Source of the DNA: a virus
Lineage: Duplodnaviria > Caudoviricetes
IMG/VR virus record: IMGVR_UViG_3300028364_000013
Reading direction: 5' to 3' (one strand)
Length of the DNA stretch: 64,000 nucleotides
This document shows positions 22,811 through 61,936 of this stretch, in pieces. The stretch's first letter is position 1; each line of letters starts with the position of its first letter. The notes under the pieces were generated by a model, which saw only the letters and a program-made list of their open reading frames with translations, had not been told where the DNA came from and did no database searches. The position numbers were made by a program, and so were the translations under genes.

Positions 22811-24352
22811 CTACGCTAATTCCTTAATTTTATTAAGTAGAGCTTCAATTCTTGCTTTAGTTTCTTTAGAACCAATTACATACATTACATCTGGCAGTTG
22901 TGGGCCAGAGGCACCTCCACAAATAGCCACTCTAAGCATTGGCATTATTTTACCAACACCAATGTTCATATTACCAGAGATGTGCTCAAGTTCATACCTA
23001 ATGTTCTTGGGTATCCAGTCGTATTCCTCGAAATTACTCATGAAGTCATCAGCTGCAAATACATTCATAACCTTTATAAACTCTTCAACGTTCTTCATCT
23101 TGATTTCACCTTCAAGAGTAGGAGTATTATAAATGTAGCTCAAGCTATCTTTTAGTTCGTGAGAAAATTCAACACGCTCAACAGCCATACTTGCAATTAA
23201 ATCAAGTTTGTCATGGTCCATAGACAAAAGGAAGTCTTCTGGCATATCAGTCATTTCCGACAGAATAGAGTCAGCATCCCTCGACCTTAAGTAATGAGAA
23301 TTGAAGTTCATCAATTTCTTCTTATCGAACATTGCACCAGCCTTATTAACACTTTCAAGACTAAATAAATCAATCATTTCTTTGATTGACATTATTTCTA
23401 CATTGTTCTTAGGATTCCAGCCAAGAAGAACTAAGAAGTTTAAAAGAGCATCTGGCTCGTAACCTTCATGCTTAAACCCAGTTACATGAGCTTTTTTGTC
23501 CTCATGAGTGATATAGTCCCAAGTCAACGGGAAAATAGGGTAGCCATACTTATCTCCATGTCTCTTGCTTAATTTCTTTCCATCATCTCCAAGAAGAAGT
23601 GGTAAGTGAGCAAAAATAGGAGCATCCCATCCAAAAGCTCTATAAATAAGAACATGAAGTGGCGTAGCAGATAACCACTCTTCACCACGAATAACATGAC
23701 TAATTTCCATTAACTTATCATCAACAATATTTGCAAGATGATAAGTAGGGAGTCCGTCAGAAGATTTCCAGATAACTTTGTCATCAAGGTCTTTCGTATT
23801 GAACTTAACCCATCCTCTAACTTCATCATGAAACTTAATATCTTCAGCTCTTGGCATTTTAAACCTAATTGTATACGCTTCTCCAGCATCAATCTTAGCT
23901 TTAGCATCACTGGCAGACATTGTTAGTGAGTTTTTCATTCTTTCTCTAACAACGCCAGTGTAACCACCTTTAACTCCAGCAGCCTCAAAGTCATCTCGCA
24001 TCTTTGTCAAGTCTTCTTTTGTATCAAATGCATAATAAGCATTTCCAGACTCAACAAGCATTTCAACATGCTCTTTGTAAATATCTTTTCTTTCAGATTG
24101 GATGTATGGCCCATGGTCACCACCTATGCCGTAACCTTCGTCTGGACTTATTCCAAGCCACTTAAGAGAGTCTGTTACATAATCAATTGCTCCATCAACC
24201 TCTCTGCTTGAGTCGGTATCTTCAATCCTTAAAATAAAATCGCCCCCATGCTTCTTGGCAAAGAGGTAATTAAATAAAGCAGTTCTCACGCCACCTATAT
24301 GCAAAGGTCCCGTGGGACTTGGTGCAAATCTTACTCTTATTTTCTTATCCAT
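22811..24352 (-). CDS. gltX: glutamyl-tRNA synthetase
   Basis: RFAPSPTG, HIGG, RIEDTD, IRGEEW, KLSKR. Confidence 0.97.
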   Translation of the reverse strand: MDKKIRVRFAPSPTGPLHIGGVRTALFNYLFAKKHGGDFILRIEDTDSSREVDGAIDYVTDSLKWLGISPDEGYGIGGDHGPYIQSERKDIYKEHVEMLVESGNAYYAFDTKEDLTKMRDDFEAAGVKGGYTGVVRERMKNSLTMSASDAKAKIDAGEAYTIRFKMPRAEDIKFHDEVRGWVKFNTKDLDDKVIWKSSDGLPTYHLANIVDDKLMEISHVIRGEEWLSATPLHVLIYRAFGWDAPIFAHLPLLLGDDGKKLSKRHGDKYGYPIFPLTWDYITHEDKKAHVTGFKHEGYEPDALLNFLVLLGWNPKNNVEIMSIKEMIDLFSLESVNKAGAMFDKKKLMNFNSHYLRSRDADSILSEMTDMPEDFLLSMDHDKLDLIASMAVERVEFSHELKDSLSYIYNTPTLEGEIKMKNVEEFIKVMNVFAADDFMSNFEEYDWIPKNIRYELEHISGNMNIGVGKIMPMLRVAICGGASGPQLPDVMYVIGSKETKARIEALLNKIKELA

Positions 24353-32375: not shown

Positions 32376-32407
32376 AAAAAAAAGCCTGAACGTTCAGTCC
32401 AGGCTTT
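32376..32407 (-). terminator. attenuator terminator of the Gln leader
   Basis: AAAGCCTGGAC-TGAAC-GTTCAGGCTTT, 8-U tract. Confidence 0.9.
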
Positions 32408-32436
32408 AAATATTTTTGTTTTATTAACTAAAATGT

Positions 32437-32517
32437 TCAGGCACCACCAGGACTGTCCTCTTTCGAAGATTGTTGCTGCTGTTGCTGCTGTACGTTTATG
32501 TTAATTACTGTTTTCAT
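32437..32517 (-). CDS. poly-Gln leader peptide MKTVININVQQQQQQQSSKEDSPGGA
   Basis: 26 codons with CAG CAG CAA CAG CAG CAA CAA; terminator 30 nt downstream, then four Gln-anticodon tRNAs. Confidence 0.9.
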   Translation of the reverse strand: MKTVININVQQQQQQQSSKEDSPGGA

Positions 32518-32659: not shown

Positions 32660-32763
32660 AATTTAACCATAACTTAGTAAAGTGCCTCTACCGTTCTACT
32701 GTCGAAGTTTGTTCGGGTGTTTACTCGCCTTGATAAGGACTGTCGATTGTTATAATTAATTTC

Positions 32764-32789
32764 TTATACGCAAATGTAATACTTTTGTT
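32764..32789 (-). promoter_or_regulatory. ECF-type promoter of the Leu(AAG)-Gln tRNA unit
   Basis: TGAAAC-N16-CGTATAA with embedded TACATTTG. Confidence 0.8.
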
Positions 32790-32865
32790 TCAATTATTCA
32801 ACTCTTTTTTTAATTATTTTTGTCGTAAGCAATAGGGTTCAGAAATTTTTAATATATTTATTGAT

Positions 32866-34796: not shown

Positions 34797-34852
34797 CCAG
34801 CTTTACCTGTTTCCAACAACCGCTACGTGGAAGCGGGTTAACTTTGGTTGTC

Positions 34853-34943
34853 TACTCCTGGTCGGACTCGAACCGACAACGTTTACCTGCATGGGTATCA
34901 GATTTTAAGTCTGATGCGTTTCAACCAATTTCGCCACAGGAGC
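34853..34943 (-). tRNA. tRNA-Leu(UAA)
   Basis: TCAGA-CTTAAAA-TCTGA, long variable arm, A73. Confidence 0.9.
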
Positions 34944-34952
34944 ATTTGTTTG

Positions 34953-35033
34953 TACAGATAGCGAGAGTCGAACTCGCACGCCTCTCGGCCATAGCTTCTA
35001 AGGCTATTGTGTCTACCATTCCACCACATCTGC
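34953..35033 (-). tRNA. tRNA-Leu(UAG)
   Basis: ATAGC-CTTAGAA-GCTAT, long variable arm. Confidence 0.9.
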
Positions 35034-35046
35034 ATGGCGCTGTAGA

Positions 35047-35595
35047 TTAATCTACAGCTTTATATTTTCTAAAAGTCATACTCACTCTTGGGCCACAATC
35101 TCTATCGTGCTTAGGAATCCTGTGCAAATTTGTATCTTGGAATCCTGGAGGCATATAGAATAAAGAACCATTTTCTAACTTTCTCTTATTCTCTTCTGGA
35201 ACTACTCCTTTTTCTCCTTTTAACTTCCACCAAATTTCTCTTTCAGCCCCAAATGATACAACCGCTATCCCATCATTATGGTCAATTGAATGAGAGTCGT
35301 CAGCGTGCCATCCTAATCCATTTCTTGAGTTCATATATAAATTCAAGAAGCAAATATCCAAACTTGTTCCCAACTTTTTATTAACCTTTTCCATTATTTC
35401 CCTAATCGCAGGCAACATTGGTGTTGATTTATAAGTTGGAGCTCCACTGTGGTCTAAGTAAGAGTATTCAATGTCAGAATCTGCCATAAAACACTCTCTT
35501 CTCATCTTCGTCTCATCAATCCAACTAACATCCCTTACCAAGGTGTCAATAAAATCTTCATTGACCAAATCATTTATGTATACTAACTTTTTCAT
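35047..35595 (-). CDS. AlkB-like 2OG-Fe(II) dioxygenase
   Basis: NLY, GWHADD, HRIPK, RVSMTFR. Confidence 0.88.
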   Translation of the reverse strand: MKKLVYINDLVNEDFIDTLVRDVSWIDETKMRRECFMADSDIEYSYLDHSGAPTYKSTPMLPAIREIMEKVNKKLGTSLDICFLNLYMNSRNGLGWHADDSHSIDHNDGIAVVSFGAEREIWWKLKGEKGVVPEENKRKLENGSLFYMPPGFQDTNLHRIPKHDRDCGPRVSMTFRKYKAVD

Positions 35596-35609
35596 TTCAT
35601 TTTTATTTG

Positions 35610-35682
35610 TAACTCCACCCAGATTCGAACTGAGACTTTAACGTTCGTAGCGTTAGGTGCTAATCCATTACACCATGGAGCT
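35610..35682 (-). tRNA. tRNA-Arg(ACG)
   Basis: TAACG-CTACGAA-CGTTA. Confidence 0.9.
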
Positions 35683-35985
35683 ATGAATTTCAAAGTGACA
35701 ATTAGCACAAACCAACATACACTTATCTAATTCTTCTTTTATTTTTTTATCAAACTTATGCGACTTCATTTTACTTAAAGCAAAACCTTTTTCTTTTGGG
35801 TCAAGGTGATGAAACTGTAAAGCTCCAACATATTTATCATATCCACATTTTTCACAACAACCACCTTTGTATTCAACGCATTTAATTTTAAACTTTCTAC
35901 CACGTTCTCTACTCTCTTCTTTATATCCAAGAGCCTCTAAAATTATTGGAAGTGCTGATTCTGTGTAAAATATTCTCGGTTTCAT
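35668..35985 (-). CDS. HNH endonuclease
   Basis: YKGGCCEKCGY, LQFHHLDP, CMLVCANCHFEIH; probable start MKPRIF. Confidence 0.85.
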   Translation of the reverse strand: MKPRIFYTESALPIILEALGYKEESRERGRKFKIKCVEYKGGCCEKCGYDKYVGALQFHHLDPKEKGFALSKMKSHKFDKKIKEELDKCMLVCANCHFEIHSSMV

Positions 35986-36000
35986 ATTTAAAATTTTTTG

Positions 36001-36081
36001 TACAGATGACGAGAGTCGAACTCGCACGCCTTTCGGCACTGGTTTCTAAAACCAGCGTGTCTACCATTCCACCACATCTGC
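36001..36081 (-). tRNA. tRNA-Leu(UAG)
   Basis: CTGGT-TTTAGAA-ACCAG, variable arm TGCCGAAAGGCGT. Confidence 0.92.
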
Positions 36082-36141
36082 ATATTTTTGGATAGTTAGT
36101 CGGAATATTTCCGATTATCCTATCACAATTTTACATTTTTG

Positions 36142-36215
36142 TAGGAGTAGAGGAATTCGAATCCCCGACATCTGACATGTAAAATCAGCGCTCTAACCAA
36201 CTGAGCTATACTCCT
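36142..36215 (-). tRNA. tRNA-Val(UAC)
   Basis: CTGAT-TTTACAT-GTCAG. Confidence 0.9.
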
Positions 36216-36394
36216 ATTTTTTCTAAATTTATAAATTTCATCTTAGGTCAAACCAAGAAGGGCTCGAAATTTAATTTTTAATATATTTTTTAATAAAAAC
36301 TATTAAAAAATATCTTGACATCATAATCAATATTATCAAAGAACGAACATTAAATGCTAAAACCTAAATAATAATTATTTCAAAGAACTTATAG

Positions 36395-36468
36395 TGGAAT
36401 AGGGTGGATTCGAACCGCCAACGCTCACCGCTTCAAGATGACGCTCTACCAATTGGAGCTACTATTCC
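36395..36468 (-). tRNA. tRNA-Phe(GAA)
   Basis: TCATC-TTGAAGC-GGTGA. Confidence 0.88.
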
Positions 36469-36521
36469 ATTTATTTCAATAATTTTCCTTTCGAATACCA
36501 ATGGACGTTTCCATAGGGCAC

Positions 36522-36554
36522 AAAAAAAGCCCGAACAATTATGTTCGGGCTTTT
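36522..36554 (-). terminator. attenuator terminator of the Leu/Phe leader
   Basis: AAAAGCCCGAACA-TAAT-TGTTCGGGC followed by 7 U. Confidence 0.9.
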
Positions 36555-36584
36555 AAAATATCTTGTGTTATATAATTTACATCA

Positions 36585-36689
36585 TCACACTAAAGACATA
36601 TCACGTCCGAACTTTTGTCTACTAAAGACAAACAGTAACTGCAAGAATTGCAGTGATAACTGACGTAATATGTTGTTAATGTTTTTCAT
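36585..36689 (-). CDS. Leu/Phe-rich leader peptide MKNINNILRQLSLQFLQLLFVFSRQKFGRDMSLV
   Basis: 7 Leu, 4 Phe, 3 Arg, 2 Val in 34 codons; between promoter 36730 and the terminator. Confidence 0.8.
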   Translation of the reverse strand: MKNINNILRQLSLQFLQLLFVFSRQKFGRDMSLV

Positions 36690-36729
36690 GTTATTTCTAA
36701 ATATACTAAAATTTTGTTTTCTCGTTTTA

Positions 36730-36755
36730 TTATACGCAAATATAATACTTTTGTT
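36730..36755 (-). promoter_or_regulatory. ECF-type promoter of the Phe/Val/Leu/Arg tRNA unit
   Basis: TGAAAC-N16-CGTATAA with embedded TATATTTG; nearly identical to 32764..32789. Confidence 0.8.
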
Positions 36756-36821
36756 TCAATAAAACCTAATCTTTTTTAGATAAAATTAAAATTAATTTAT
36801 AATCACTTGATTGTTAGCGCT

Positions 36822-41246: not shown

Positions 41247-42275
41247 TTATTTAATCAAAAATTCTTGGAGAACCTCACTCCCAAACTCTCCTTTGGTTAA
41301 ATTAATTATTTCTGTAACTGAATATTTTTCTTTCTTATTTATTTTATTTCTCTCAACAAAATCTTTAACACCAAAACTGCAAGCTCCAGTTATAGCTCGA
41401 TAACAAGAAACTGCTTGCTCAAAACTTAACTTATCTGTTAGCTTTAAGTTTTTAAAATCATCTTTGTTTACATCAGAATTTAACTTATAAATCAAATCTT
41501 CTCTTGCTTCTGAAAGAGAGTCTCCATGAGCATATCTGCCATTCCCATCTGTAACCAAATAAAAAACCTTCTCTTTAAATAGCTCTTTAACTCTGAAAAC
41601 ACCGCCTCTCACAGAAATAATCTCTGTAAATATACCATCTGCCTTTATGTATTTATCGCCCCACATAACTGGTCCAATTAATTTCGTGTAATCACAAGTC
41701 AAACCTCCCAAGTCCAAACCTCCTCCAACGGTTGGGTTAAATCCCTCTGGAATCGAAGTCAAGTTGTTCAAGTACAAACCTTCTCCAACAGTTGGGTTAA
41801 ATCCCTCTGGAATCGAAGTCAAGTTGTTCAAGTACAAACCTTCTCCAACAGTTGGGTTAAATCCATCTGGAATCGAGGTCAAACTGTTCAAGTCCAAACC
41901 TCCTCCAACGGTTGGGTTAAATCCCTCTGGAATCGAAGTCAAGTTGTTCAAGTACAAACCTTCTCCAACAGTTGGGTTAAATCCATCTGGAATCGAAGTC
42001 AAACTGTTCAAGTCCAAATATCCTCCAACGGTTGGGTTAAATCCCTGTGGAATCGAGGTCAAACCGCTCAAGTCCAAACCTCCTCCAACGGTTGGGTTAA
42101 ATCCCTCTGGAATCGAAGTCAAGTTGTTCAAGTACAAACCTTCTCCAACAGTTGGGTTAAATCCATCTGGAATCGAAGTCAACCCTCTCAAGTGCAAGCT
42201 TCCATTTATTTTAACTTCACCAGTAAACTGCTCTTCAGTTAAATTGTATTCCTTGCAAAATTCTTTTTTATTCAT
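41247..42275 (-). CDS. 20-aa LRR-like repeat protein, copy 1
   Basis: 8 tandem LTSIPEGFNPTVGxxLxLxx units; 342 aa. Confidence 0.85.
   Translation of the reverse strand: MNKKEFCKEYNLTEEQFTGEVKINGSLHLRGLTSIPDGFNPTVGEGLYLNNLTSIPEGFNPTVGGGLDLSGLTSIPQGFNPTVGGYLDLNSLTSIPDGFNPTVGEGLYLNNLTSIPEGFNPTVGGGLDLNSLTSIPDGFNPTVGEGLYLNNLTSIPEGFNPTVGEGLYLNNLTSIPEGFNPTVGGGLDLGGLTCDYTKLIGPVMWGDKYIKADGIFTEIISVRGGVFRVKELFKEKVFYLVTDGNGRYAHGDSLSEAREDLIYKLNSDVNKDDFKNLKLTDKLSFEQAVSCYRAITGACSFGVKDFVERNKINKKEKYSVTEIINLTKGEFGSEVLQEFLIK
41700..42195. repeat. 60-bp coding tandem repeat x8
   Basis: GTTGGGTTAAATCC recurs every 60 nt. Confidence 0.95.
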
Positions 42276-51791: not shown

Positions 51792-53219
51792 TTAGTATTT
51801 CCTTTTTGAAGGGTCGTCATCAGCCATCCTAACCACTTGTGGTGTGAATGTACCAAGAATATCAATCAAGTTGTTTTGCGCTTCCATTACTTTCGTAATA
51901 TCTTTATAAGCATATGGAGCCTCATCGAGACCGCCACCAACAAGTGTTACCTTGTTATCTTTAAGAAGCTTAGTAACTGAGCTTTGAGTAAACGAGTTTC
52001 TCGCCACCTTTCTTGACATAGCTCTACCAGCACCGTGAGAAGCTGAAGATATTGAGTCAACAACACCTCTTCCTCTAACAATGAACCCTGGAGAAACCAT
52101 AGAACCTGGGATTATACCAAGGACACCTTTTCCAGCAGGAGTTGCTCCCTTACGGTGAACAATAACCTCTTTACCATCAATGATTTCCTTCCAAGCAAAG
52201 TTGTGGTGATTTTCAATCTTAGCCACTGGGTTTAACTTTAGCTCTTTGGTAATTCTTCTGTGAATCTCGTTGTGACAAGCTTGCGCATAATCACCAGCCA
52301 TATTCATAGCTATCCAGTATTCCACACCAGCTTCCGAATTCATATCAAGCCACGCAAGGTGTTGAGCTGCCTTTGGAAGAGGTGTTGTGTTCATAGCAAT
52401 TTCATGATACTTGTTGGCAAGTGTAGCACCGAACCCTCTTGAACCAGAGTGAGTTAATACACCAACATATTCTCCAACCTCAAGACCGAAGTCGTTAGTT
52501 GGGTCAGTTATCTTAACTATACCAAAGTCCACAAAGTGATTTCCACCTCCTGAAGTTCCAAGTTGTTTCCAAGCTTTGTCCTTAAGAGCTTTTATGTTTG
52601 GTATTTCATTGAACTCTTTCCTATCAAGGAATTCGTGTTCAGTTAATTTACCATCATTCTCAACTCCCATTCCGAAGAATGACTCAGACTTAAGAATGTT
52701 TTCAATCTTATCTCTATTTCCATCAATGTATGAACCACCTTTATCGTAGATGGTCATGTGCATTCTACAACCTATGTCAACACCAACTGCATATGGAATA
52801 ATAGCATTATCTGTAGCAAGGACACCTCCAATTGGAAGTCCATAACCTTGGTGAGCATCTGGCATAAGAGCTGCAGCAACAGAGATTGGCAATCTTGCAG
52901 CAAGTTTTATTTGCTCGTGAGCGCCTTCTTCTATGTTGTCTCCACCATATACAGTATATGGCACACCAACTTCTTTAAGTGGGATTTCAATCACTTCCTC
53001 TTCTACAGCTGGAATCAATAATTCAGCGATTGGCCCAAGAACAATGTCTTCAACATAATCTTCTGGAGTCAAAAGTACAGCCTTTAAAATATCACGTACA
53101 GTATCAAGGTCACTGTGCTTGTAAGCTTTTGTTACAATCTTCAATGTTACACCCATAACTTTACCTGGCTCCATTCCGAACGCCATAAGGTCTTTGCCTG
53201 TTATCTTTAACTTTACCAT
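51792..53219 (-). CDS. rtcB: RtcB RNA ligase
   Basis: MPDAHQGYG, GVDIGC, GTSGGGNHF, HSGSRG, HHN, VHRKGA, SHGAGR, DEAPYAYK. Confidence 0.95.
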   Translation of the reverse strand: MVKLKITGKDLMAFGMEPGKVMGVTLKIVTKAYKHSDLDTVRDILKAVLLTPEDYVEDIVLGPIAELLIPAVEEEVIEIPLKEVGVPYTVYGGDNIEEGAHEQIKLAARLPISVAAALMPDAHQGYGLPIGGVLATDNAIIPYAVGVDIGCRMHMTIYDKGGSYIDGNRDKIENILKSESFFGMGVENDGKLTEHEFLDRKEFNEIPNIKALKDKAWKQLGTSGGGNHFVDFGIVKITDPTNDFGLEVGEYVGVLTHSGSRGFGATLANKYHEIAMNTTPLPKAAQHLAWLDMNSEAGVEYWIAMNMAGDYAQACHNEIHRRITKELKLNPVAKIENHHNFAWKEIIDGKEVIVHRKGATPAGKGVLGIIPGSMVSPGFIVRGRGVVDSISSASHGAGRAMSRKVARNSFTQSSVTKLLKDNKVTLVGGGLDEAPYAYKDITKVMEAQNNLIDILGTFTPQVVRMADDDPSKRKY

Positions 53220-57475: not shown

Positions 57476-57512
57476 AAAAAAAAGCCCAAACTATTCGAGA
57501 TAGCTTGAGCTT
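57476..57512 (-). terminator. attenuator terminator of the Cys leader
   Basis: AAGCTCAAGCTAT-CTCGA-ATAGTTTGGGCTT, 8-U tract. Confidence 0.85.
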
Positions 57513-57536
57513 AAAATTTCTTTTATTATTATAAAT

Positions 57537-57647
57537 CTACTTCATAACACTCAAACTAACGTTTTTTTTGCAAAACGGACATACCCCTTCCAGGCCGCAA
57601 TCAATCGCTTGCGAAGTTGGTCTCCAATATGTCATGTTAGTTTTCAT
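57537..57647 (-). CDS. Cys-containing leader peptide MKTNMTYWRPTSQAIDCGLEGVCPFCKKNVSLSVMK
   Basis: 36 codons, 3 Cys; terminator 24 nt downstream, then an RNase H-like gene and two tRNA-Cys. Confidence 0.7.
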   Translation of the reverse strand: MKTNMTYWRPTSQAIDCGLEGVCPFCKKNVSLSVMK

Positions 57648-61770: not shown

Positions 61771-61799
61771 AAAAAAAGCCCGACCTATTGGCCGAGCTT
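61771..61799 (-). terminator. attenuator terminator of the Asn/Ile/Thr/Lys/His leader
   Basis: AAGCTCGGCC-AATA-GGTCGGGC followed by 7 U. Confidence 0.9.
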
Positions 61800-61825
61800 C
61801 TGTATATTTTAAATTGTACTTGTGA

Positions 61826-61936
61826 TTAAATTAGTTCATCACTTCCATTTTTGCTTATACATAGCTCGACCATACCATTTTGCTTTTTATTGCAAATCGT
61901 ATTATTAATCGTTGTATGTATATTTAATGAGTACAT
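61826..61936 (-). CDS. leader peptide MYSLNIHTTINNTICNKKQNGMVELCISKNGSDELI
   Basis: 14 of codons 5-20 are N/I/H/T/K; between promoter 61985 and the terminator. Confidence 0.85.
   Translation of the reverse strand: MYSLNIHTTINNTICNKKQNGMVELCISKNGSDELI

What the first reader, a model, noticed from the sequence alone, without database searches (positions are those of the whole stretch)
36522..36689. Leu/Phe-rich leader attenuator upstream of Phe, Val, Leu, Arg, Leu, Leu tRNAs
Seen: LRQLSLQFLQLLFVFSR with six Leu in codons 8-19 (TTA, CTG, TTG), plus Phe, Val and Arg(CGT). GTTCGG (36607..36612) can pair with terminator arm GCCCGAAC (36543..36550). A TTTGTC/GACAAA hairpin lies just upstream, giving a 1:2, 2:3, 3:4-type layout. 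The three interspersed Gln codons might couple it to the Gln block further downstream (inference).
Basis: partly seen in the sequence, partly recalled or inferred. Interest (0 to 1): 0.82.

Follow-up and report, generated by a model that had tools for sequence, protein, structure and literature searches.

The report
Leader-peptide switch gating phage tRNA genes
A 34-codon mini-gene written mostly in Leu, Phe, Val and Arg codons, followed by a switchable transcription stop, lies between the only recognisable promoter and a giant phage's Phe-Val-Leu-Arg tRNA genes, so the phage probably makes these tRNAs only when ribosomes read those codons slowly; this control is textbook for amino-acid genes, but I found no published case for tRNA genes.

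Summary
On the minus strand there is a 34-codon ORF (36689..36585), a strong intrinsic terminator (36554..36522) and then tRNA-Phe, Val, Leu, Arg, Leu, Leu. GTTCGG does pair with the terminator's 5' arm.

Each has a Bacteroidota-type promoter, a short ORF, a terminator 48-56 nt after the stop codon, and a tRNA cluster. Each ORF is enriched only for codons read by its own cluster's tRNAs, and only in the ORF frame (Fisher p about 2e-6; the true pairing ranks 1 of 720). One sister leader has seven consecutive Gln codons ahead of four tRNA-Gln genes.

In all six, folding with a ribosome mask keeps the antiterminator available only while the A site is at or before the last cognate codon. Seven divergent relatives keep the ORF (in-frame indels only), the terminator and a tRNA-Phe-first cluster. 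I also confirmed the same design in the cultured Caulobacter phage CcrBL9.

There are no expression data, so the mechanism is inferred. Earlier notes of this scan report the same design on this genome and in at least 13 others. I found no publication describing it.

The parts
36731..36780 (-). Promoter of a family repeated at least 10 times in the genome. It has an A-tract, TTGAAACA (36759..36752) and a Bacteroidota-type -7 box TATATTTG (36744..36737) inside the invariant ATTTGCGTA. The inferred transcription start is near 36732.
   Evidence: The -7 consensus TAnnTTTG is from PMC9723704. It is the only promoter of this family upstream of the cluster down to 34852.
36690..36732 (-). 5' UTR with the conserved TATTTAGAAATAA motif, A-rich and without a Shine-Dalgarno sequence.
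   Evidence: Only 13 of 177 long ORFs of this phage have an SD-like motif. A is enriched at -3 and at -10..-13, as in the leaders.
36585..36689 (-). Leader ORF of 34 codons plus TGA.
   Evidence: The ORF is kept in 7 divergent relatives with only in-frame 3-nt or multiple-of-3 indels.
36624..36668 (-). Regulatory run, codons 8-22 (LRQLSLQFLQLLFVF). 11 of 15 residues are Leu, Phe, Val or Arg, using TTA, TTG, CTG, CGT, TTC, TTT and GTC.
   Evidence: CGT and CTG are rare codons in this phage (0.24% and 0.26%) and match tRNA-Arg(ACG) and tRNA-Leu(UAG).
36638..36654 (-). Hairpin 1 (ACTGCAA TTC TTGCAGT), built from Leu and Gln codons. Possible pause hairpin.
   Evidence: At least 4-5 bp are kept in relatives, with one compensatory C-G to U-A change.
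36614..36632 (-). Hairpin 2 (TTTGTCT TTAGT AGACAAA).
   Evidence: 100% paired in 6 relatives.
36607..36612 (-). GTTCGG, the 5' strand of the antiterminator. It pairs with CCGAAC at 36548..36543.
   Evidence: It is present in every relative, including L113, which was found through the peptide rather than the DNA pattern.
36596..36673 (-). Long-range helix 36673..36662 : 36607..36596 (12 bp). Predicted anti-antiterminator of the ribosome-free RNA.
   Evidence: ORF region alone -35.3 kcal/mol, z = -4.9; 93% of cells paired in relatives, no compensatory change.
36556..36604 (-). Intervening hairpin that spans the stop codon and brings GTTCGG next to the terminator arm.
   Evidence: -9.9 kcal/mol alone, -18.9 with the closing GTTCGG:CCGAAC helix; 88% paired in relatives.
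36522..36554 (-). Intrinsic terminator: stem 36550..36542 / 36537..36529 with an A/U extension, then U7 at 36528..36522.
   Evidence: L113 shows a compensatory G-C to A-U change at the base of the stem.
36469..36521 (-). Spacer with two small conserved hairpins (ATGGA-AACG-TCCAT, then TTCGAAAGGAA). Role unknown, perhaps processing.
   Evidence: (4 of 5 pairs show changes on both sides).
34852..36468 (-). Gated tRNA cluster: Phe(GAA), Val(UAC), Leu(UAG), Arg(ACG), Leu(UAG), Leu(UAA), with an HNH endonuclease gene and an AlkB-like oxygenase gene embedded.
32381..32517 (-). Sister cassette G: a leader with seven consecutive Gln codons plus a terminator, ahead of four tRNA-Gln genes.
   Evidence: It is conserved in L105 and L089.
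61771..61936 (-). Sister cassette E: an Asn/Thr/Ile/Lys-rich leader plus a terminator, ahead of the Asn, Thr, Lys, Ile and Met tRNAs.
   Evidence: (9-bp antiterminator, -16.1 kcal/mol, 0 of 500 shuffles).
57480..57647 (-). Sister cassette H: a leader with three Cys codons plus a terminator, ahead of an ORF and two tRNA-Cys genes.

Best explanation
This is a ribosome-mediated (leader-peptide) transcription attenuator that gates a phage tRNA operon. Transcription starts at the Bacteroidota-type promoter near 36732. A ribosome then translates the 34-codon leader.

If decoding of Leu (TTA/TTG/CTG), Phe, Val or Arg (CGT) codons at positions 8-22 is slow, the ribosome stalls there. It then covers or separates the 5' strand of the long-range helix and leaves GTTCGG free. 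GTTCGG pairs with the terminator's 5' arm as that arm emerges, closing an intervening hairpin. The terminator cannot form, and RNA polymerase runs on into tRNA-Phe, Val, Leu, Arg, Leu, Leu.

If decoding is fast, the ribosome moves past codon 23 and masks GTTCGG and the intervening hairpin, so the terminator forms. With no ribosome at all, the 12-bp long-range helix sequesters that segment and the terminator also forms.

The result would be negative feedback: the phage tops up exactly those tRNAs whose codons are being read slowly.

Shown: the sequence features, the codon statistics, the predicted alternative folds and the conservation. Inferred: translation of the leader, stalling, read-through, and what limits decoding (tRNA abundance or charging).
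For: (1) Layout. The only family promoter feeding the cluster lies upstream of the leader, and a strong terminator stands between the leader and the tRNAs.

(2) Codon match. F has 14 of 33 codons readable by its cluster's tRNAs against 3.9 expected. Six cassettes in one genome each match only their own cluster. Diagonal empirical p values are 0.002-0.065, the Fisher combination is 1.8e-6, and the true assignment ranks 1 of 720. All off-diagonal pairs are unremarkable.

(3) The match exists only in the ORF frame.

(4) Rare codons CGT x2 and CTG x2 match Arg(ACG) and Leu(UAG).

(5) Sister leader G has seven consecutive Gln codons before four tRNA-Gln genes, the classical signature.

(6) The antiterminator is more than chance. 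It adds -9 kcal/mol to the intervening hairpin, against -15.8 for the terminator.

(7) Nascent-RNA folding with a ribosome mask: the 5' arm is pre-paired (P about 0.7) while the A site is at or before codon 22, and about 0 from codon 24 on. The same boundary, at the last cognate codon, appears in all six cassettes. For cassettes B and E even equilibrium folding switches.

(8) The distance from stop codon to U-tract is 48-56 nt in all six.

(9) Seven relatives keep ATG, stop and frame (indels of 3 nt or multiples). They exchange mainly L/V/F in the run, keep 14-17 F/L/V/R residues, keep the terminator (one compensatory pair) and always have tRNA-Phe first.

(10) The phage's translation signals fit: no SD, A-rich upstream regions. 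Hosts of this type show signs of leader-peptide attenuation upstream of amino-acid biosynthesis operons (PMC9723704).

(11) An independent lineage shows the same design. In Caulobacter phage CcrBL9 a 39-aa ORF has 33 of 38 cognate residues before 12 tRNAs (p=9e-8). A 32-aa ORF plus terminator precedes 7 tRNAs (17 of 31, p=0.0035).
Against: There are no transcript, 3'-end or ribosome data for this phage. The closing antiterminator helix is only 6 bp, and at equilibrium the terminator is predicted to form at every ribosome position for F and C, so F must work kinetically. The long-range helix has mismatches in some relatives and no compensatory change. Alone, leader F is only at p=0.017 among small ORFs of this T-rich genome. 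Cognate codons also occur after the boundary (F27, R29, L33, V34). Part of the invariant block in the relatives was imposed by my search pattern. Phage-specific promoter classes that bypass the terminator cannot be excluded. L/V/F exchanges are also what any hydrophobic peptide would show.
Confidence: 0.75

Rival explanations
1. It is a stand-alone small early phage gene. A 34-aa hydrophobic peptide with a function of its own is transcribed as a monocistronic promoter-ORF-terminator unit, and the tRNAs are made by constitutive leak-through or from an unrecognised promoter.
For: The promoter-small ORF-terminator module recurs. The peptide's N-terminus (MKNINNI) and C-terminal half are conserved in relatives. 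Small early genes with their own terminators are common in large phages (general knowledge).
Against: It does not explain why each of six peptides is enriched for just the amino acids and codons of the tRNAs behind it, nor the poly-Gln leader. It does not explain the antiterminator placed one ribosome-width behind the last cognate codon in all six. The conserved C-terminal half is invariant at the nucleotide level, synonymous sites included, which points to RNA constraint. No other promoter of the family lies before the tRNAs.
Confidence: 0.12
2. It is an untranslated structured RNA, such as a small RNA or a processing or stability element ending in its own terminator, and the reading frame is incidental.
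For: The fold is strong: 191 nt at -62.7 kcal/mol with z=-6.9, and the ORF part alone has z=-4.9. Nucleotide-level invariance extends to third positions in codons 20-29. The Leu/Gln alternation follows from an in-frame palindrome.
Against: ATG, stop and frame are kept in all relatives, with indels only in multiples of three. Cognate-codon enrichment is seen only in frame 0. The translation-initiation context is like that of the phage's real genes. There is no Rfam family at gathering score, and the sub-threshold hits are driven by the terminator.
Confidence: 0.06
3. It is chance. A T-rich spurious ORF that happens to be Leu/Phe-rich lies next to an ordinary terminator, and the 6-bp complementarity is coincidental.
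For: Random small ORFs of this genome average 21% F-set codons and some reach 50%. A 6-mer match is weak evidence by itself.
Against: The six-fold repetition carries cluster-specific matches (Fisher 1.8e-6, rank 1 of 720). The cassette is conserved in relatives. The same design appears in CcrBL9.
Confidence: 0.03

Closest known systems
Leader-peptide attenuators of enterobacterial amino-acid operons (trpL, hisL, leuL, pheL; mechanism reviewed and modelled in PMC1183508)
   Same: A short translated leader carries a run of regulatory codons. An antiterminator and a terminator compete for the same strand. A stalled ribosome frees the antiterminator. A helix forms in untranslated RNA and favours termination. 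The energies are of similar order, with the terminator stronger than the antiterminator.
   Different: The regulated genes are tRNAs, not biosynthetic enzymes. The element is in a phage. The context is a Bacteroidota-type promoter and SD-less initiation. There is no sequence or Rfam relationship. The output would relieve the stall directly by supplying the decoder, not the amino acid.
Multivalent leaders (ilvGMEDA leader for Ile/Leu/Val; thrL for Thr/Ile)
   Same: One leader mixes codons for several amino acids, as here (Leu, Phe, Val, Arg).
   Different: There the mix mirrors a shared biosynthetic pathway. Here it mirrors the list of tRNA genes in the operon, down to isoacceptor-specific codons (CGT for ACG, CTG for UAG, TTA/TTG for UAA).
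pheM leader of the E. coli pheST operon (from my own knowledge)
   Same: Leader-peptide attenuation is applied to a translation-apparatus gene, a tRNA synthetase, and responds to tRNA-Phe charging.
   Different: It controls a protein enzyme, uses a single amino acid, and is cellular.
T-box riboswitches
   Same: The logic is similar: transcription read-through is set by the state of a specific tRNA, and translation-related genes are controlled.
   Different: A T-box binds uncharged tRNA directly through a specifier codon and needs no ribosome. No T-box model matches here. T-boxes are not known to gate tRNA genes in this manner.
Phage T4 tRNA gene cluster (from my own knowledge)
   Same: It is a cluster of phage tRNA genes transcribed as precursors from upstream promoters, with homing endonuclease genes nearby.
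   Different: To my knowledge no leader ORF with cognate codons or attenuator has been described there.

Membership tests
Ribosome-mediated (leader-peptide) transcription attenuator | Short ORF with start, stop and a plausible initiation context directly downstream of a promoter | tested here: met
   The ORF is conserved in relatives.
Ribosome-mediated (leader-peptide) transcription attenuator | Leader enriched in codons cognate to what the operon supplies | tested here: met
   F: 14 of 33 against 3.9 expected, empirical p 0.017. Six cassettes combined give 1.8e-6 and rank 1 of 720. The enrichment is frame-specific.
Ribosome-mediated (leader-peptide) transcription attenuator | Intrinsic terminator between the leader and the regulated genes | tested here: met
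   -15.6 kcal/mol stem plus U7 at 36554..36522. It is conserved, with a compensatory pair in L113.
Ribosome-mediated (leader-peptide) transcription attenuator | Antiterminator that uses the terminator's 5' arm and excludes the terminator | tested here: met
   GTTCGG:CCGAAC closes an intervening hairpin. It is short (6 bp), so a kinetic mechanism is required.
Ribosome-mediated (leader-peptide) transcription attenuator | Regulatory codons placed so that a stalled ribosome frees the antiterminator and a ribosome further on blocks it | tested here: met
   In silico only. The boundary lies at codon 22/23 for F and at the last cognate codon in all six cassettes.
Ribosome-mediated (leader-peptide) transcription attenuator | Anti-antiterminator (1:2) helix in ribosome-free RNA | tested here: inconclusive
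   A 12-bp helix is predicted. It is 93% paired in relatives but has mismatches and no covariation.
Ribosome-mediated (leader-peptide) transcription attenuator | Read-through responds to supply of the cognate charged tRNA | not testable with these tools
   No RNA run holds this DNA. An experiment is needed.
Ribosome-mediated (leader-peptide) transcription attenuator | Regulated genes are amino-acid biosynthesis or related protein genes (as in all described members) | tested here: not met
   The downstream genes are tRNAs. For this reason I class it as a new variant, not a new member.
Rfam leader families (Thr_leader RF00506, Phe_leader RF01859, Trp_leader RF00513 and others) | Score at or above the family's gathering threshold | tested here: not met
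   Thr_leader scores 25.5 against 55, Phe_leader 17.3 against 55, Trp_leader 14.6 against 41. All matches lie over the terminator. Nothing passes at gathering level.
T-box riboswitch | Match to the T-box covariance model (specifier loop, T-box sequence) | tested here: not met
   No T-box hit appears at gathering score or at E<=10.

The most novel reading that the evidence does not exclude
Large phages of unrelated lineages (this Bacteroidota-type lake phage and its relatives, and Caulobacter phage CcrBL9) regulate their tRNA genes by demand. Each tRNA cluster sits behind a translated 'test strip' of the very codons its tRNAs read, so the phage measures decoding speed codon by codon and transcribes a tRNA set only when the cell's supply falls short. 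Such a shortfall could follow host tRNA turnover or attack by tRNA-cleaving defence nucleases. This would be the first case of leader-peptide attenuation controlling tRNA genes. It would give a built-in sensor of host tRNA supply.
Probability: 0.6. Interest if true: 0.9.

Novelty: new variant of a known kind. Interest (0 to 1): 0.8.

Why it matters
Why phages carry tRNA genes, and how they use them, is an open question. Proposed answers include codon-usage compensation, replacement of degraded host tRNAs and escape from anticodon nucleases. A leader that reads out decoding speed for exactly the codons served by the downstream tRNAs would show that the phage treats tRNA supply as a regulated quantity. 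It would also identify which codons it monitors.

It would extend a textbook mechanism, leader-peptide attenuation, to a new class of target (RNA genes) and to viruses. It would also give a simple sequence signature for finding such control in metagenomic phages. Because the same design is present in the cultured phage CcrBL9 with a tractable host, the idea is directly testable.

Tried and rejected
- **RNA evidence:** no RNA holder is listed for window:34800-37400. I did not use read laying because only DNA contigs are available.
- **Exhaustive phmmer search of the peptide:** one true relative (P0001, a miscalled 58-aa ORF that runs through the promoter) and one low-complexity hit that I ignored.
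- **Neighbour genes as handles for relatives:** the 160-aa gene gave only distant homologues (at most 45% identity). The 255-aa gene gave none. The AlkB-like gene inside the cluster gave the one IMG/VR relative.
- **L102** from the metagenome pattern scan is a GC-rich chance match and was dropped.
- **A megablast-like search of phage GenBank records** found nothing syntenic.
- **Equilibrium folding with a ribosome mask** does not switch for cassettes F and C. Only the nascent-RNA (kinetic) model does.
- **A simple duplex search** found no significant antiterminator for B and C. For B the full fold pairs CGGAAAGAAC with the arm plus the loop.
- **The G001 contig** holds only the F and G clusters, so it yielded no further leader types.
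- **Covariation tests** on six sequences have too little variation to be decisive.
- **Rfam E-value hits** (MicC, Thr_leader and others) are terminator look-alikes below threshold.
- **Literature:** seven full-text searches found no paper on leader-peptide control of tRNA genes. The library lacks many subscription journals, so absence is not proof.

Full report
**Context**

The window is the reverse strand of an IMG/VR virus record of 195 kb, with completeness estimated at 78%. It is held mainly by lake-water metagenomes. The DNA is AT-rich. In this window it carries 22-23 tRNA genes on the minus strand, a Glu/Gln-tRNA-synthetase-like gene and an RtcB ligase. An HNH endonuclease gene and an AlkB-like oxygenase gene are embedded in the tRNA cluster.

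The phage's genes lack Shine-Dalgarno sequences and have A-rich upstream regions. Its repeated promoter contains TAnnTTTG, the -7 box of Bacteroidota sigma-A (PMC9723704). A Bacteroidota host is therefore likely, though this is inferred.

**The observation**

- the 34-codon ORF at 36689..36585;
- six Leu codons at positions 8-19;
- Phe, Val and Arg(CGT) codons;
- GTTCGG at 36612..36607, complementary to the terminator arm at 36548..36543;
- the TTTGTCT/AGACAAA hairpin;
- a strong terminator (-15.6 kcal/mol, U7) ending at 36522;
- tRNA-Phe 53 nt further on.

The whole leader is far more structured than shuffled sequence (z = -6.9, and -4.9 for the ORF part alone).

**What surrounds it**

The 150 nt upstream of the ORF belong to a promoter module that recurs at least ten times in the genome. 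Six copies share one architecture: promoter or transcript, a conserved A-rich 5' UTR, a short ORF of 26-39 codons, a terminator whose U-tract begins 48-56 nt after the stop codon, and then tRNA genes. I found four of these myself. An earlier first-reader note of this scan (e1-5402871) pointed me to the poly-Gln and Cys leaders, which I then checked.

No other promoter of the family lies between the F leader and the end of its cluster.

**Codon matching**

I asked what fraction of each leader's codons can be read by the tRNAs of each cluster, allowing standard wobble.

Against the phage's own codon usage, every leader is enriched for its own cluster:

| Leader | p |
|---|---|
| B | 9e-4 |
| C | 0.045 |
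| E | 0.005-0.02 |
| H | 0.009 |
| F | 1e-5 |
| G | 4e-6 |

Leaders are not enriched for other clusters, apart from a weak Gln signal in F. In the two other reading frames the diagonal signal vanishes.

Spurious ORFs in T-rich DNA are Leu/Phe-rich, so I also used 901 small ORFs of the same genome as a null. The diagonal p values become 0.002-0.065 (F: 0.017). The Fisher combination is 1.8e-6. The true leader-cluster pairing is the best of all 720 permutations.

The leaders also use codons that are rare in this phage but match the local anticodons. F has CGT x2 and CTG x2, B has TCG and TCC, C has CCG and E has ACG. Leader G has seven consecutive Gln codons before four tRNA-Gln genes.

**Structure and mechanism**

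In ribosome-free RNA, a 12-bp helix (36673..36662 with 36607..36596) encloses hairpins 1 and 2 and takes in the last G of GTTCGG, and the terminator forms.

I then folded only the RNA ahead of a ribosome, stopping before the terminator's 3' arm is made. In that model GTTCGG pairs with the 5' arm and closes an intervening hairpin. This state is -18.9 kcal/mol, against -9.9 without the closing helix. The terminator state is -25.7. These proportions resemble classical attenuators, where the antiterminator wins by forming first.

The 5' arm is pre-paired (P about 0.7) while the A site is at or before codon 22, the last Phe of the run. It is free from codon 24 onwards. The same step, placed at the last cognate codon, appears in all six cassettes: after Ser16-Arg18 in B, Asp26 in C, Lys18 in E, Cys26 in H and Gln16 in G. 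For B and E the switch is also seen at equilibrium. For F and C it is not, so these two must rely on kinetics. That is a weakness of this particular cassette.

**Relatives**

A 66-kb IMG/VR contig (found through the AlkB-like gene, 86% amino-acid identity), five distinct metagenomic variants and one further variant found through the peptide all carry the cassette.
- All keep ATG, stop and frame. Length changes are in multiples of 3 nt.
- Substitutions in the run are mostly among Leu, Val and Phe, and the F/L/V/R count stays at 14-17.
- The terminator is kept, with a compensatory G-C to A-U pair in L113.
- Hairpin 1 shows one compensatory change. The small hairpin after the terminator covaries at four of its five pairs.
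- The first tRNA is always Phe(GAA), followed by Val, Leu and Arg(ACG).
- The poly-Gln leader is also conserved.

One caveat applies. The 20-nt block containing GTTCGG was my search pattern for the metagenome scan. L113, however, was found independently of that pattern.

**Independent lineage**

Earlier notes of this scan report the same design in at least 13 other genomes. To test that claim I examined the cultured Caulobacter phage CcrBL9.
- An annotated 39-aa 'hypothetical protein' lies 120 nt before twelve tRNAs (Pro, Thr, Lys, Leu x3, His, Ala, Ser x3, Trp). It has 33 of 38 residues from those eight amino acids (p=9e-8).
- An unannotated 32-aa ORF with a terminator, and a near copy of the terminator's 3' arm, precedes Val, Ile, Val, Gln, Asn, Arg and Phe tRNAs (17 of 31, p=0.0035).

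**Comparison with what is known**

The mechanism is that of trpL, hisL, leuL and pheL, and in its mixed codon content that of the ilv and thr leaders (PMC1183508 for the mechanism). Flavobacteria show signs of leader-peptide attenuation upstream of amino-acid biosynthesis operons (PMC9723704). The element is not a member of any Rfam leader family and is not a T-box.

What differs is the target: tRNA genes, in a virus, with leaders that list the cluster's isoacceptors. Seven literature searches found no description of this.

**Verdict**

Two details are corrected: which helix acts as the anti-antiterminator, and the origin of the Gln codons.

I put 0.75 on a working attenuator. The main rival is a stand-alone small gene with its own terminator (0.12). 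I class it as a new variant of a known kind, and of high interest because the idea is testable in a cultured system.

Noticed in passing
window 36469-36521 (-); also after the terminators of cassettes C and E (genome 95890-95935, 110272-110310): After the terminators of cassettes C, E and F comes a small hairpin with an (A)AACG loop. In F and its relatives a second mini-hairpin follows (TTCCGAAAGGAA). The first hairpin covaries among relatives. Its role is unknown, possibly a processing or protein-binding site ahead of the first tRNA.
   Followed up: partly
L089:1008-1150 (also L100, L101, L106 just after the terminator): In some relatives the first gene after the terminator looks like a tRNA-Phe(GAA) interrupted by an insertion of about 70 nt between the D arm and the anticodon stem. 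ARAGORN does not call it. It may be an intron-containing or disrupted tRNA.
   Followed up: no
window 32660-32790 (-): A promoter of the same family drives tRNA-Leu(AAG) directly, without any leader ORF. The poly-Gln leader then follows that tRNA on the same transcript, so a leader can be translated from an RNA that begins with a tRNA.
   Followed up: partly
window 35047-36039 (-), 51792-53219 (-), 22811-24352 (-): An HNH endonuclease gene and an AlkB-like 2OG-Fe(II) oxygenase gene sit inside the tRNA cluster. An RtcB-type RNA ligase and a Glu/Gln-tRNA-synthetase-like gene lie nearby. Together they look like a tRNA supply and repair island.
   Followed up: partly
genome G000:C1:80325-80415 (outside the window): Directly after the terminator of cassette B there is a tRNA-like sequence with a long variable arm that ARAGORN did not call. 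An earlier scan note lists extra Ser tRNAs and a Trp tRNA in that cluster, which would also fit the two Trp codons of leader B.
   Followed up: no
window 42003-42063: The window and the stored genome record differ at 24 positions, the first ten of them within about 60 nt starting near 42003. The cause was not examined; it could be a variable or masked stretch.
   Followed up: no
L112:3708-3827 and L112:11199-11297 (Caulobacter phage CcrBL9, NC_048047.1 81307-81426 and about 88798-88896): A cultured phage with a tractable host has the same codon-matched leader ORFs in front of its 12-tRNA and 7-tRNA clusters. One of them is annotated only as a hypothetical protein.
   Followed up: partly
all six leaders (N-termini): The leaders begin alike (MKN.., MKT.., A-rich codons). 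This may be an initiation-efficiency feature of SD-less translation rather than part of the sensing run.
   Followed up: no
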